64,000 bases of DNA from Ruditapes philippinarum (taxonomy: Eukaryota). Below are positions 6,001-42,000 of this stretch, one piece after another. The first letter of the stretch is position 1; every line of letters begins with the position of its first letter. The position numbers are program-made. Location: positions 248,001 through 312,000 of the forward strand of contig NW_026861602.1 of the NCBI RefSeq assembly GCF_026571515.1, written 5' to 3'.

Positions 6001-9000
6001 AAGGACACTAGAGATCTTCCTTACTTATCCTATGCATCAAGTTAGTATACTACATTTGATGTAGCCTCAAATGAGAAATTGTTTTTTGTTGAAGACTCAA
6101 GTGAGAAATTATTTTTTGATGAAGCCTAAAGTTAGAAGTTGTTTTTTTGATGTAGCCTCAATTAAGAAATTGTTTTATGATGTAGCCTCGAGTGAGAAAT
6201 TGTTTGTTTTTATGTAGCCTCGAGTAAAAAATTTTTTTTTGATGTAGACTCAAGTGAGAAATTGTTTTTTGATGTAGCCTCGAGTAAAAAATTGTTTTTT
6301 GATGTAGACTCATGTGAGAAATTGTTTTTTGATGTAGACTCAAGTGAGAAATTGTTTTATGATGTATCCTTGAGTGAGACATTGTTTTTGGATGAAGCCT
6401 AGAGTGAGAAATTGTTTTTTATATAGCCTCTAGTGAGAAATTGTTTTTTGATGTAGCCTAAGTGAGAAATTGTTTTTTTTTATGTAGCTTCAAGTGAGAA
6501 ATTGTTTTAAGATGTAGCCTCGAGTGAGAAATTGTTTTTTTTATGTAGCCTAAAGTAAAAAAAAAAATTTTATTTAGACTGAAGTGAGAAATTGTTTTTT
6601 GATGAAGCCTCAAGTAAAAAATTGTTTTTTGATGTAGACTCAAGTGAGAAATTATTTTTTGATGTTGCCTCAAGTAAGAAGTTGTTTTTTAGCTCACCTG
6701 AGCTTGCTCAGGGTGAGCTTTTAGGATCGGTGAATGTCCGTCGTCCGTCGTCCGTCGTCCGTCCGGCCGTCCACAATTTCTTGTGAACACTCTAGCGGTC
6801 GCATTTTTGCCTCAATCATCATCAAACTTGGTCAGGATGCTTATCTAGTTGAAAGCTCGGATGAGTTCGAACATGGGTCATCTCGGATGAAAAACTAGGT
6901 CACAAGAGCTAAAAATAGAAAAACCTTGTGAACACTCTAGAGGTCACATTTTTGACCCAATCATCATCAAACTTGGTCAGGATGTTTGTCTAGGTGATAG
7001 CTCGGATGAGTTCGAACATGGGTCATCTCGGATGAAAAAGTAGGTCACAGGAGCTATAAATAGAAAAACCTTGTGAACACTCTAGTGGTCACATTTTTGA
7101 ACCAATCATCATCAAACTTGGTCAGAATGCTTGTCTAGTCAATTGCTTGGATGAGTTCGAACATGGGTCATCTCTGATGAAAAACTAGGTCACAGGAACT
7201 AAAAATAGAAAAACCTTGTGAACACTCTAGTGGTCACATTTTTGACCCAATCATCATCAAACTTTGTCAGGATGCTTGTTTAGATAATAGCTCAGATGAG
7301 TTCGAATATGGGTCATCTCGGATGAAAAACTAGGTCACCGGAGCTATAAATAGAAAAACCTTGTTAACACTTTAGCGGTCACATTTTTGCATCAATCATC
7401 ATCAAACTTGATCAAGATGCTTGTCTAGGTGATAGCTCGGATGAGTTCGAACATGGGTCATCTCGGATGAAAAACTAGGTCACAGGAGCTAAAAATAGAA
7501 AAACCTTGTTAACACTCTAGTGGTCACAATTTTGACTCAATTGTCATCAAACTTGGTCAGGAAACTTGAATAGGTCATTGCTTGGAATAAATCGAACATG
7601 GACATCTCGGATGAAAAACTAGGTCACATGAGCTAAAAATAGAAAAATCTTGTTAACACTCTAGTGGCTACTGTTGTGATCCAAATATTCTGTTAATTGG
7701 TCTGAAAGTTTTTTTTGATGATTTCTAAGTCAAGATCAAACATGGGTCATCTTGGATGAAAAACTAGGTCACACCGCCCAAATATGGAAAAACCTTGTTA
7801 ACATTCTAGTGGTCACATTTTCGACTCGATTATCATCAAACTTGGTCAGGATGCTTGTCTAGGTAATTGCTTGGATTAGTTCGAAATCGCATGTGAAACT
7901 AGGTCACCGGAGCTAAAAATAGAAAAATCTTGTTAACACTCTAGTTGCTACTGTTTTGATCCAAGTATCCTGGAAATTGGTCTGAAAGTTTGTTTTGATG
8001 ATTTCTAGGTCAAGTTTGAATATGTGTCACCTGGGTAAAAAACTAGGTCGCACTGCTCAAATATGGATAATCCTTGTTAACACTGAGTCACATTTTTGAC
8101 TCACCTGTCATGAGACTTGGTCAGAATGCTTGTCTAGGTAATTGTTTGGATGAGTTTGATAATTCAGGTGAGCGATCTAGGGCCATCATGGCCCTCTTGT
8201 TTTATGTAGCCTCGATTGAGAAATTGTTTTTTTTTATGTAGCCTCGAGTAAAAAATTTTTTTTTGATGTAGACTCAAGTGAGAAATTGTTTTTTGATGTA
8301 GCCTTGAGTAAAAAATTGTTTTTTGATGTAGACTCATGAGAGAAATTGTTTTTTGATGTAGACTCAAGTAAGAAATTGTTTTTTGATGTAGCCTCGAGTA
8401 AAAAATTGTTATTGGATGTAGCCTAGAGTGATAAATTGTTTTTTGATGTAGCCTAAATGAGAAATTGTTTTTTTTATGTAGCCTCAAGTGAGAAATTGTT
8501 TTTTGATGTAGCCTCGAGTGAGAAATTGTTTTTTTGATGTAGCCTCGAGTGAAAAATTGTTTTATGATGTAGCCTTGAGTGAGAAATTGTTTTATGATGT
8601 AGCCTCGAGTAAGAAATTGGTTTTTGATGTAGCCTCGAGTGAGTAATTGTTTTTTGATGTAGGCTTGAGTGAGAAATTGTTTTGTGGCGTCATTGATTTG
8701 TCATTACTTTTGGGTTATCCAATATCAAAAAGGTCATTGGTGTATATAAGTGATTGTCTTTTATTTAAGATATGAAAAATAATATTAATATTAGAAATAT
8801 GGATGCATTATTTTCTATAGAAATTCTACAACATTCTCAAAGTTAGAAATGAAACAATTTATTTACATCTTTATATCAAAAATATACAAAATATTAATAA
8901 ACAATTATTAATATTTTAAATCAAACAAAATTGTTCATGCTCTGGGCTTTCTGAAGAGTGCAATTCAAAATGTACAAATAATGGCAAACAGAGTGTTCTG

Positions 9001-39000: not shown

Positions 39001-42000
39001 GTAACAATACATTTATGATGTTTTAGAATTTTAATCATGAAACAATAAATTGACAATGATATTTTAGGATTCTGTGTGTATAACAATACTTTGATTACAT
39101 TGACTATGGTATTTTAGGATTTTACTGTGTGACAATAAATTGACAATGGTATTTTTCAAATTTGACTTCATTACAATACATAAACAATGATATTTTAGGA
39201 TTTTGACTGTGTAACAATATATTTACATGATATTTTAGGATTTTGACTGTGTAACAATACATGCACTATGATAATTTAGGGTTTTGACTGTGTAACAATA
39301 CATGCACTATGATATTTTAGGGTTTTGACTGTGTAACAATACATTCACTATGATATTTTAGGGTTTTGACTGTGTAACAATACATTCACTATGATATTTT
39401 AGGATTTTGACTGTGTAACAATACATTCACTATGATATTTTAGGATTTTGACTATGTAACAAGACATTAACAATGATATTTTAGGATGTTGACTGTGTAA
39501 CAATACATGCACTATGATATTTTAGGATTTTGACTGTGTCATGATATTTTAGGATTTTGACTGTGACAATGAGCTGAAGGTATCTGTGATAGATTTTCTG
39601 GAGGAGATGGTATGTAATACAAATCTGTTACCAGCTGAACACAAGGCTGCGGCTTCAATACTGAGGACTCTTACCAAGGAAACAACAGAACCTAAAATAG
39701 ATCTCACAAAACTTCTTGCTCACCCAGAGGTAATTAGTTCATTCTTTTCTTCAGGATAATAAATAGCGGCAGCTTACCTTTAAATAATAAATCTCACAAA
39801 ATTTTCTTGCTCACCCATAAGTAGTATGCTTTTTTTCATCAGGATATTATTTAGGGGCAGCTTATCTTTCAATAATAAATCTTACAAAATTTCTTGCTCA
39901 AGCAGAGGTAATATGTAGTATGTTCATATTTCCTCAGACAGCATACCTTTCAGTTAATAATAATTAAATTTCACAAAACTTACTTGCTCGCCAAGATGTT
40001 ATAATTATGCTCACTTTCAATTTTTAATACTGATATAATTGATTGCTTTAAAAAGATAAAGTATGTCTTATTCATTAATATAATTATATTTTAGACATCT
40101 TCAAAGGACACATTTGATAGTTTATCAGCGTTAGACATATCTGAACAGTTGACATTCCTTGATCATCAAATATTTACATCTATCAGGAGCGAGTATGTCA
40201 TCTTCTTTTTTGTAGAAATTCTAACAAACTTGATACAAGTCATGAGGATATAAATGAATTCAAAACATTTGATTAAGACAGGTAGTGGTTGCCCACTTGT
40301 TTCTGTAATATGGCACACAGAGGCACCTGATGTTTTTCCTAAACAACTAAAGCTAGAATGTGGCAATATGACCAGAAAAACACCATATGACTGGAAAGTC
40401 ACCATATGACTAGGAAAATTCCATGACCAGAGAGTTGCAATATAACCAAAAATCACTATATAACCGGAAAGTTGCCTAATGCCTGAAAACAACTATATGA
40501 CTGGAAAGTTACCATATAACTAGAAAAAAATACCATATGACTGGAAAATTGCCATATAACTGAAATCACCATATGACTGGAAGCTTACCATATAACTGAA
40601 AACACCATATGACTGGAAAGTTACCATATAACTGAAAACACCATATGACTGGAAAGTTGCCATATAACTGAAAACACCATATGACTGGAAAGTTGCCATA
40701 TAACCAAAAAACACCATATGACTGGAAAGTTGCCTAATGCCTGAAAAATATCATAACCTGAAAGTTGCCATATGACCTTTATACAATGTAGGTGTGACTT
40801 ATAACCCAACTAAAACCATGTGTGTGGATACATGTAATTCGCTAATGGATCACACTGTATCTATTCATAAATATATATTAAAATTGTCATTGGTTATTTT
40901 GTCATGTTCATTAGAAGAACTTTTAAAATGCATTGTACTTTTCTATCCAGACTTTTCCTTACTTCATTGTTTTAACATTATCTGACTGATGAAATATTTT
41001 TGTTTTATGTAGAGAATTACTTGGACAAGCGTGGATGAAGCCTGACAAATCTAACAAAGCTCCTCATGTTCTTCTTGTCAGTAAGAGATTTAATGAGGTA
41101 AATATACTTAAATTATGTTCTGATAAGATATTGAAAAATGTCAATGAGATTAGTTGATATCACACTATGAAAAATGAGTGAGGTTTAGAATTTTTGTTTG
41201 TTTCCATTCTATACATTCTAAAATATATAGCAGATAAAAATGCATATTAAATAAGATAATGAATTTCATTTGGATAATATTTTTGTAGCACAGATATTAA
41301 ATCTGTTTAAACCTTGAAGCAAGCATTGTATAGAAATGCTCTCTAATAGGGGTACCAGTATAAAGGTATATATCTGTGAAAGCAGATGGGTAGCTTTGAC
41401 AGAAAAGACAGTGATAAGGTATTCCAGGGATTCCAAGTTTGAGTCCCTTTCATGGCTTCACATTTTCCTCACCCTGTGAGTCACAAAGTTAAATAATCAC
41501 GTTTTTCTATATGATGGCAAGATTGTAACTAGCCTGTTTTTTTTATGTGCTTCTGTTAACAAAAGCACAAACAAATACGATATAGTGATTATGTTATGAA
41601 TAATCAAAAAATATGTTATGAATAATCAAAAAATATGTTATGAATAAGCAAAAACTATCAATGCCTGAATCCTAGGCTAGATTTTAACCCTTAAACTGCT
41701 AGATGGAACCAAAAGTGGTGAAAGCCTTTGTTACCGGCATAAAACCAGGTCTGTCTGTACATCCTTGCAATCTGACCGCGCTCTATACTACTCTTGAATG
41801 ACTAACATCAAATTTTCTATATCCCTACAATTTATAATGGACAGTTCTAAAAATTGAAGCTAGACTAGTCCATAATGTAAATTCATCAGGTTATGGGTTA
41901 AAACTGGTATATTTAACCAAATTATTTTCATTTATTCAGGTTAGTCGACTGGTTGTGACAGAGATTGTAAGTAGAACCAATCTACAGGAACGTGTAGCAT

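What the first reader, a model, noticed from the sequence alone, without database searches (positions are those of the whole stretch)
6041..40005. Gene-wide pattern: intron-private tandem arrays that start at or beside splice sites
Seen: arrays overlap junctions at the exon 16 donor and at both ends of exon 18. Others begin within about 5 nt (exon 9) or about 17 nt (exon 4) of a donor, or end about 65 nt before exon 7, and a 32 bp duplication starts at +4 of intron 10. Each unit is unique to its intron and often decays towards one edge. Inference: a local duplication process focused at exon edges (for example R-loops, polymerase pausing or repair slippage) may drive intron expansion here. I do not know a named system for this, and it is my best candidate for something undescribed in this window.
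Basis: partly seen in the sequence, partly recalled or inferred. Interest (0 to 1): 0.7.

Follow-up and report, generated by a model that had tools for sequence, protein, structure and literature searches.

The report
Intron minisatellites touching splice sites
A clam signalling gene has introns swollen by short tandem repeats, and a few of these repeats were copied from the very edges of exons, a kind of repeat already described in several human genes.

Summary
The window holds 25 exons (1085-45724, + strand) of a RasGRF gene. Exon translations match a protein NCBI names from the clam Ruditapes philippinarum. It is not human.

Arrays touch or lie within 14 nt of five splice junctions: exon 18 acceptor and donor, and the donors of exons 16, 9 and 4. 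The exon 18 arrays contain exon 18 coding sequence, so they arose locally.

The pattern is weaker than claimed:
- Tandem arrays fill 26% of the whole window, about equally in introns (29%) and downstream intergenic DNA (26.5%).
- Array coverage is lower, not higher, near junctions (7-10% within 100 nt against 25-40% deeper).
- 5 arrays observed within 14 nt compares with 0.6 to 3.0 expected. P runs from 2e-4 to 0.16, depending on whether seeds may span a junction.
- The intron 10 "duplication" flanks an inserted inverted-repeat element.
- Several 145-174 bp arrays are carried by Helentron-type mobile elements.

Minisatellites whose first monomer spans an exon-intron boundary are already described in human F7, CBS, 6-16, LMNB2 and PDGF.

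Best reading: ordinary slippage-born minisatellites in short introns, tolerated at exon edges. One oddity remains: a Pinctada gene model shows a similar 27-nt array at the same acceptor.

The parts
1085..45724 (+). RasGRF gene, 25 exons in the window (protein residues ~225-1494). Exons: E1 1085-1200, E2 2080-2217, E3 5185-5264, E4 5847-6040, E5 9189-9299, E6 9722-9839, E7 17492-17655, E8 18873-18951, E9 19976-20178, E10 21624-21706, E11 23340-23415, E12 23942-24159, E13 24704-24939, E14 25823-26518, E15 27319-27445, E16 36623-36735, E17 38682-38788, E18 39553-39729, E19 40095-40192, E20 41013-41097, E21 41940-42137, E22 42801-42880, E23 43665-43782, E24 44296-44364, E25 45602-45724.
   Evidence: tblastn of P0002 exon by exon. 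GT/AG sites and phase arithmetic, with no joined sequence made. Single exons hit Pfam RhoGEF, RasGEF_N and RasGEF.
6055..8683 (+). 30-nt minisatellite starting at +15 of intron 4. It is split into two halves (6055-6690 and 8200-8683) by the inserted element at 6691-8199.
   Evidence: TRF. The two halves are 88% alike. Sequence read.
6691..8199 (+). Helentron-type non-autonomous element. Parts in order: sub-terminal inverted repeat with hairpin, (GTCC)n microsatellite at 6736-6772, 9.6 units of 145 nt at 6780-8156, second sub-terminal repeat, 3' palindrome.
   Evidence: Architecture as described for Cg_HINE elements in PMC7492417 (passages).
16990..17432 (+). 37-nt minisatellite at the 3' end of intron 6. 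TRF ends it at 17385. Decayed units run to about 17432, about 60 nt before exon 7.
20185..20475 (+). 27/41/82-nt array starting at +7 of intron 9. Its units hold a 12-nt palindrome.
21710..22846 (+). Perfect 33-nt direct repeat (21710-21742 and 22814-22846) flanking a 1.07-kb element with 26-nt terminal inverted repeats (21743-22811). The first copy starts at +4 of intron 10.
36734..38065 (+). 29-nt minisatellite in register with the last 2 nt of exon 16 and its donor. A 345-nt unrelated stretch (37204-37548) interrupts it. The first 87 nt from +2 are 87/87 identical to the next 87.
38981..39565 (+). Array whose units carry the exon 18 acceptor plus 13-18 nt of exon 18. Units are 41 nt, with a final 27-nt unit. 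13 upstream units keep the acceptor and 1 has lost its AG.
39696..40047 (+). About 88-nt units made of the last 34 nt of exon 18, its donor and about 54 nt of intron. There are 4 copies and the fourth is decayed. They fill most of the 365-nt intron 18.
18623..18857 (+). 235-nt palindromic element with terminal inverted repeats. It ends 15 nt before exon 8. Other copies of the family lie at 17834-18068, 54473-54707 and 62643-62877, and the long form at 21743-22811.

Best explanation
These are ordinary minisatellites in an array-rich clam genome.

Shown: short segments (14-88 nt) of intron were duplicated in tandem and then amplified. This now accounts for about 29% of intronic bases.

Inferred: the first duplication came from replication slippage between short direct repeats, and growth came from unequal exchange.

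Seeds fall more or less anywhere. Those inside exons are removed by selection. Those spanning an exon edge can survive, because the copy still joined to the body of the exon goes on serving as the splice site. The other copies become pseudo-sites inside the intron.

Introns 16, 17 and 18 are only 272, 192 and 183 nt once repeats are stripped. In introns that short, a 29-88 nt seed is likely to touch an edge.

Arrays of 145-174 nt preceded by a GTCC-type microsatellite ride on Helentron-type mobile elements. The intron 10 duplication flanks an inserted inverted-repeat element.

No process aimed at exon edges is needed.
For: Array density:
- Arrays cover 26.3% of the window (30 arrays).
- Coverage is 29.2% in introns, 26.5% in the intergenic part and 1.2% in exons.
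- By distance to the nearest junction, coverage is 7% (33/480) at 1-10 nt and 10% at 11-100 nt. It rises to 25%, 31% and 40% beyond 200, 400 and 800 nt.
- 43 of 48 junctions have no array within 100 nt.

Local origin:
- The exon 18 arrays carry exon 18 sequence.
- The exon ends encode residues conserved from annelids to molluscs, so the direction was exon to array.

Chance expectation when seeds may span a junction (5 observed within 14 nt):
- Same intron, current lengths: 2.44 expected, P=0.06.
- Own intron, stripped of repeats: 3.04 expected, P=0.16.
- Whole gene, stripped, all arrays: 2.62 expected, P=0.11.

Array behaviour:
- Most arrays are most uniform in the middle, with no consistent polarity towards exons.

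Precedent:
- Several human genes hold the same kind of boundary-spanning minisatellite (PMC1557585, abstract and Introduction).
Against: - No array end falls between 15 and 105 nt from a junction, while five fall at or below 14 nt.
P is 2e-4 to 1e-3.
- With the mobile-element arrays left out (19 of 23 kept), the whole-gene seed model expects 1.66 against 5 observed, P=0.02.
- Both ends of one exon are hit.
- One Pinctada gene model (P0017) shows four 9-12-residue units at the same acceptor. That is an unlikely coincidence if sites are random.
- All thresholds were chosen after seeing the data, from a single gene.
Confidence: 0.6

Rival explanations
1. One reading: a mutational process really is concentrated at exon edges, so tandem duplications start there more often than elsewhere. 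Possible causes are breaks or stalled forks at nucleosome-bound exons, R-loops, paused polymerase, or simply slippage-prone T-rich splice-site sequence. On this view the process is a main route of intron growth in bivalves.
For: - 5 of 23 arrays lie within 14 nt of a junction and none lie between 15 and 105 nt.
- The strict null gives P=2e-4. The seed null for short-unit arrays gives P=0.02.
- Three of the five cluster on exons 16-18, and both ends of exon 18 are hit.
- A similar 27-nt array sits at the same acceptor in the Pinctada model P0017. It is absent from 11 of 11 other genomic fragments that cover that junction, which points to independent origin.
- Two inverted-repeat elements also sit 15 nt and 36 nt from exons.
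Against: - Array coverage is lowest next to junctions.
- 43 of 48 junctions carry nothing.
- Intergenic DNA is equally array-rich.
- Nulls that allow junction-spanning seeds give P 0.06-0.16.
- There is no consistent young end facing exons.
- The data are one gene, picked because it looked this way.
Confidence: 0.2
2. The junction arrays are kept by selection as banks of pseudo-splice sites. They would tune RasGRF output by diverting some transcripts to forms with early stop codons, or buffer splice-site choice around exon 18.
For: - 13 of 14 upstream units keep the acceptor, and each would lead to a stop within 16 codons.
- GT is kept in 3 of 3 extra donor copies.
- A similar array occurs at the same acceptor in Pinctada.
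Against: - The copies are young (81-100% alike), so kept sites need no selection.
- The exon 16 array has lost GT in all its copies (0 GTAAT in the array).
- The array is absent in a close relative (P0121, 92% identical exon).
- No RNA data were available.
Confidence: 0.07
3. The arrays near junctions were delivered by mobile elements that prefer to insert next to exons.
For: - The window holds Helentron-type array carriers and five copies of an inverted-repeat element.
- One of those ends 15 nt from exon 8.
Against: - The exon 18 arrays contain exon 18 sequence, so they cannot have been brought in.
- No short-unit array has a second copy elsewhere in the 64 kb.
- The element-borne 145-174 nt arrays all lie more than 700 nt from junctions.
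Confidence: 0.05

Closest known systems
Human F7 intron 7 37-bp VNTR and the similar minisatellites in the 6-16, CBS, LMNB2 and PDGF genes (PMC1557585; abstract and Introduction read)
   Same: - An intronic minisatellite whose first monomer spans the exon-intron boundary, so the donor is repeated as pseudo-sites downstream.
- The exon-contiguous site is the one used. In the clam this rests on the P0002 model and on homology.
- The exon share is small: 4 nt in F7, against 2 nt at exon 16 and 34 nt at exon 18 here.
   Different: - Here one exon carries such arrays at both ends, including an acceptor-side array with 13 pseudo-acceptors. My searches found no described acceptor case.
- The exon 16 copies have all lost GT.
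- No transcript or polymorphism data exist for the clam arrays.
[quoted passage not shown]
   Same: A single tandem duplication spanning a donor junction. It shows that such events do arise.
   Different: That one is harmful and gives aberrant transcripts. The clam arrays sit in what appears to be a working gene model.
Helentron non-autonomous elements carrying tandem repeats: Cg_HINE, Pearl, DTC84 (PMC7492417 passages; PMC3879986 abstract)
   Same: A GTCC-type microsatellite followed by 140-180 bp tandem units, with sub-terminal inverted repeats and a 3' palindrome. This matches 6691-8199. By microsatellite and unit size alone it also matches 12013-12377, 47737-49312 and 51178-52649.
   Different: These explain only the long-unit arrays, none of which is near a splice site. 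Sequence likeness to the named families was not tested.
Intron gain by tandem duplication of coding sequence holding a proto-splice site (Lehmann et al. 2010, PMC2891723; abstract read)
   Same: A tandem duplication that includes exon sequence and a splice signal, with one copy ending up as intron.
   Different: No new intron is made here. The intron before exon 18 is at the same place in 11 of 12 fragments from other animals. This is intron growth, not intron gain.

Membership tests
Boundary-spanning intronic minisatellite (F7 IVS7 type) | Tandem array of roughly 10-100 nt monomers inside an intron | tested here: met
   TRF gives 29-nt units x about 40, 41-nt x 13.5 and 88-nt x 2.4. Alignment shows 4 copies of the 88-nt unit.
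Boundary-spanning intronic minisatellite (F7 IVS7 type) | The terminal monomer includes exon nucleotides and the splice site, so the site is reiterated in the intron | tested here: met
   - Exon 18 donor: 34 exon nt in the unit, with GT kept in 4 of 4 copies.
- Exon 18 acceptor: 13-18 exon nt in the unit, with AG kept in 13 of 14 upstream units.
- Exon 16 donor: only 2 exon nt in register, and GT kept in none of the copies, so this one is marginal.
Boundary-spanning intronic minisatellite (F7 IVS7 type) | Only, or mainly, the exon-contiguous site is used in transcripts | tested here: inconclusive
   The NCBI-named model P0002 and cross-species homology fit only the exon-contiguous sites. No RNA data were available.
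Boundary-spanning intronic minisatellite (F7 IVS7 type) | Copy number varies between individuals (VNTR) | not testable with these tools
   Only one haplotype is in hand.
Helentron non-autonomous element with central tandem repeats (HINE, Pearl, DTC84) | Short GTCY/GTCC-type microsatellite at one end of the central array | tested here: met
   Microsatellites at 6736-6772, 12013-12036, 47737-47877 and 51178-51241 lie just before their arrays. The feature is described in PMC7492417.
Helentron non-autonomous element with central tandem repeats (HINE, Pearl, DTC84) | Central repeats of about 140-180 bp | tested here: met
   Units of 145, 174, 145 and 166 nt.
Helentron non-autonomous element with central tandem repeats (HINE, Pearl, DTC84) | Sub-terminal inverted repeats, a left-flank hairpin and a right-flank palindrome | tested here: met
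   Read by eye for the one element at 6691-8199. The motif scan is. The other arrays were not examined for this feature.
Helentron non-autonomous element with central tandem repeats (HINE, Pearl, DTC84) | Sequence similarity to a described family | not tested
   No repeat library was available.
Intron gain by tandem duplication of a proto-splice site | A new intron position, absent in relatives | tested here: not met
   In 11 of 12 fragments from other animals, likeness stops exactly at the start of exon 18.

The most novel reading that the evidence does not exclude
Exon edges in bivalve genes are genuine hot spots for tandem duplication. The process hits the same RasGRF exon 18 acceptor independently in Ruditapes and Pinctada, with units of about 27 nt in both. 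It builds banks of pseudo-splice sites and is a main way that short introns grow long in these genomes.
Probability: 0.12. Interest if true: 0.6.

Novelty: new member of a known kind. Interest (0 to 1): 0.3.

Why it matters
As it stands, this is a clear non-vertebrate example of minisatellites born from splice junctions. It includes a rare case of one exon flanked on both sides by arrays copied from its own edges, with 13 spare acceptors and 3 spare donors. That makes a natural test bed for how the splicing machinery picks one site among near-identical neighbours.

If the excess at exon edges held genome-wide, it would point to a mutational bias that shapes intron size in array-rich genomes. 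This window alone cannot show that.

Tried and rejected
- Other isoforms of the clam protein were sought, to see whether any uses a pseudo-site. 
- Fragment proteins covering exon 18 in other animals were checked for repeats upstream of the exon. None was found in 11 of 11. A further search with the Pinctada segment found no second record with the repeat.
- Exon-ward polarity of array age was tested and is not consistent.
- Likeness of the exon 4 and exon 9 arrays to their own exon ends was tested and none was found.
- Rfam and tRNA scans of the window found 0 hits.
- Open frames at 60338-61225, which I recalled as transposase-like, gave no Pfam hit in 3 of 3 frames. I dropped that label.
- Zhuo et al. 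2007 on introns from tandem arrays is not held. I saw it only as a reference-list entry.
- Searches for bivalve reports of arrays at splice sites and for a general distance analysis found nothing relevant.
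Full report
WHAT THE WINDOW IS

A stop-to-stop ORF list showed RhoGEF-like and RasGEF-like peptides on the + strand. One exon translation found Ras-specific guanine nucleotide-releasing factor proteins. The best hit was P0002, which NCBI names RasGRF1-like isoform X3 of Ruditapes philippinarum.

tblastn of P0002 against the window gave 25 collinear pieces covering residues 225-1494. Identity was 100% inside every exon. I fixed exon borders from GT/AG sites and from counting bases between in-frame anchors.

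I built no joined coding sequence and searched with none. Single exons hit Pfam RhoGEF, RasGEF_N and RasGEF. The window has no N. It is clam DNA, not human.

CENSUS OF ARRAYS

TRF gave 145 rows. I left out rows scoring below 100 and merged overlapping rows. That gives 30 arrays covering 16,813 bases, or 26.3% of the window. Of these, 23 lie in introns of the gene and 7 lie downstream of it.

Coverage is 29.2% of intronic bases, 26.5% of the intergenic part and 1.2% of exonic bases. A cut-off of 50 gives the same picture. Arrays are therefore a property of this genome region, not of this gene. One genome paper puts total repeats at 52% of the R. philippinarum genome (PMC11592408, passages). Its table with the tandem-repeat share is a supplement that I could not see.

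- Exon 18 (39553-39729): confirmed at both ends.
- Exon 16 donor: TRF starts the array at +2. In register, 27 of 30 matched units are preceded by TGA, where the real donor has TGG. So the first unit shares the last two exon bases and differs at intron +1.
- Exon 9 donor: the array starts at +7.
- Exon 4 donor: the array starts at +15.
- Exon 7: TRF ends the array 106 nt upstream. Decayed units continue to about 60 nt upstream.
- Intron 10: a perfect 33-nt repeat starts at +4, but its partner is 1104 nt away. Between the two copies lies a 1.07-kb element with 26-nt terminal inverted repeats. This family has five copies in the window, and another copy ends 15 nt before exon 8. Either the element inserted with an unusually long flank duplication, or it landed exactly between two tandem copies. 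I cannot tell which.
- Privacy of units: within the 64 kb, only 1 of 23 intronic arrays has any likeness outside its own intron. That is 32841-33567 against the intergenic 145-nt array, at 69% over 91 nt. The intron 4 array is one array cut in two by an insertion.

ANATOMY OF THE JUNCTION ARRAYS

Intron 17:
- It ends in 13 units that each carry the acceptor motif and the first 13-18 nt of exon 18, plus one unit that has lost its AG.
- The last unit is a perfect 27-nt copy right against the exon.
- Read in the phase left by exon 17, every one of the 13 pseudo-acceptors leads to a stop within 16 codons.

Intron 18 (365 nt):
- It is almost entirely four copies of an approximately 88-nt unit. The unit is made of the last 34 nt of exon 18, the donor and about 54 nt of intron.
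- GT is invariant in 4 of 4 copies.
- Reading through the real donor meets a stop at codon 10.

Intron 16:
- The first 87 nt from +2 are 87/87 identical to the next 87 nt.
- No copy in the array holds GTAAT.

Direction of copying: the exon 18 ends encode residues conserved from annelids and brachiopods to molluscs. So the arrays were copied from the exon, not the exon from the arrays.

IS THE NEARNESS MORE THAN CHANCE?

Distances from array end to nearest junction are -34, -13, 1, 6, 14, then 106, 173, 218 and upward.

The observed count is 5 arrays within 14 nt of a junction.

| Null model | Arrays used | Expected within 14 nt | P |
|---|---|---|---|
| Array placed wholly inside its own intron | 23 | 0.64 | 2e-4 |
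| Array may overlap a junction by up to one unit | 23 | 2.44 | 0.06 |
| One-unit seed in own intron, arrays and known insertions stripped | 23 | 3.04 | 0.16 |
| Same, units under 100 nt only | 19 | 2.48 | 0.07 |
| Seed anywhere in the stripped gene | 23 | 2.62 | 0.11 |
| Same, units under 100 nt only | 19 | 1.66 | 0.02 |

Coverage tells against a focus at the edges. It is 7% of bases at 1-10 nt from a junction (33/480) and about 10% out to 100 nt. It rises to 25-40% beyond 200 nt.

Only 4 of 48 junction 40-mers have a strong local duplicate.

The stripped lengths of introns 16, 17 and 18 are 272, 192 and 183 nt, the shortest in the gene. In introns that short, a 29-88 nt seed has a 26-57% chance of touching an edge under the model. 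These per-intron chances are my own arithmetic from that model's formula. The script did not print them.

My reading is a 2- to 3-fold excess at best. It comes from one gene chosen for looking this way, with thresholds set after the fact.

OTHER KINDS OF REPEAT IN THE PATTERN

The stretch 6691-8199 has the following parts, in order:
- a sub-terminal inverted repeat with a hairpin;
- a (GTCC)n microsatellite;
- 9.6 units of 145 nt;
- the matching sub-terminal repeat;
- a palindrome.

This is the architecture described for Helentron non-autonomous elements of oysters and for Pearl and DTC84 (PMC7492417 passages; PMC3879986 abstract). Arrays at 12013-12377, 47737-49312 and 51178-52649 share the microsatellite and the unit size. 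None of these is near a splice site.

OTHER SPECIES

Among 84 of 120 RasGRF hits that hold the motif just before exon 18, one stands out. P0017 is a hypothetical protein of Pinctada imbricata. It carries four extra units of 9, 9, 9 and 12 residues exactly at the exon 17/18 junction. Each unit reads like the first codons of exon 18 followed by a read-through acceptor. This is an inference from a gene model. I could not see the DNA.

Eleven of 12 short unnamed fragments that cover the start of exon 18 break off exactly there. None of the 11 shows a repeat upstream. They include P0121, whose exon is 92% identical to the clam's. So the clam array is young and lineage-specific. The Pinctada array, if real, arose independently at the same acceptor.

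WHAT IS KNOWN

The Introduction of Borensztajn et al. 2006 (PMC1557585, read) lists minisatellites whose first monomer spans an exon-intron boundary:
- human 6-16 (25 pseudo-sites);
- CBS;
- LMNB2;
- PDGF;
- F7 (a 37-bp unit that includes 4 exon bases).

The paper reports that the most upstream donor is chosen by 5'-to-3' scanning (abstract). A one-off 403-bp duplication of a donor junction causes disease in FGG (PMC9052919, abstract). Tandem duplication of coding sequence with a proto-splice site is a proposed route of intron gain (PMC2891723, abstract).

My searches found no acceptor-side case, no exon flanked on both sides, and no bivalve report. That is weak evidence of absence, because the library lacks most subscription journals.

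MECHANISM AND RIVALS

I commit to slippage-born minisatellites in short introns, tolerated at exon edges because the exon-contiguous site stays in use (confidence 0.6).
- Shown: local origin, the content of the units, array density and the fall in coverage near junctions.
- Inferred: slippage and unequal exchange, selection against exon-internal arrays, and which sites are used in RNA.

Rivals:
- A real mutational focus at exon edges (0.2).
- Selected banks of pseudo-sites (0.07).
- Delivery by mobile elements (0.05). The exon content of the units excludes this for exon 18.

LEFT UNCHECKED

- No bivalve genome could be searched, so there was no genome-wide test and no orthologous DNA.
The genome collection holds only bacteria and archaea, and I did not use it.
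- Isoforms of the clam protein could not be listed.
- No RNA data were available.

Noticed in passing
P0017 (Pinctada imbricata model), residues about 1220-1258: Four tandem units of 9-12 residues sit exactly at the exon 17/18 junction. They read like exon 18 start plus a read-through acceptor. This is the same junction that carries the acceptor array in the window.
   Followed up: partly
window 17834-18068, 18623-18857, 21743-22811, 54473-54707, 62643-62877: A family of palindromic elements with 26-nt terminal inverted repeats: four copies of 235 nt and one of 1.07 kb. One copy ends 15 nt before exon 8.
   Followed up: partly
window 21710-21742 and 22814-22846: A perfect 33-nt direct repeat flanks the 1.07-kb element. 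That is far longer than the few-base flank repeats of the other copies. It is either a long target duplication or an insertion exactly between two tandem copies.
   Followed up: partly
window 6691-8199; also 12013-12377, 47737-49312, 51178-52649; motif match at 35425-35437: Helentron-type array carriers, with a GTCC-type microsatellite followed by 145-174 nt units. One is inserted inside the 30-nt minisatellite of intron 4. An exact copy of its 13-nt terminal motif lies at 35425 with no array beside it.
   Followed up: partly
P0023 (Nucella lapillus) and P0027 (Biomphalaria glabrata) models: Both models carry a second, diverged exon-17-like segment read through before exon 18. This suggests a duplicated exon 17 in gastropods.
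   Followed up: no
window 36737-36910: A three-unit (87-nt) higher-order repeat is copied perfectly (87/87), starting at +2 of intron 16.
   Followed up: yes
window 37204-37548: A 345-nt unrelated stretch interrupts the 29-nt array of intron 16. It is probably an insertion. Its nature was not determined.
   Followed up: no
window 57065-57813: A 749-nt array built on CTCTG with 20-, 25- and 95-nt higher periods. It gives long open frames in three + strand phases, which are an artefact of the repeat.
   Followed up: no
window 60338-61292: Overlapping + strand open frames of 84-107 residues with no Pfam match (3 of the frames tested, 0 hits).
   Followed up: partly
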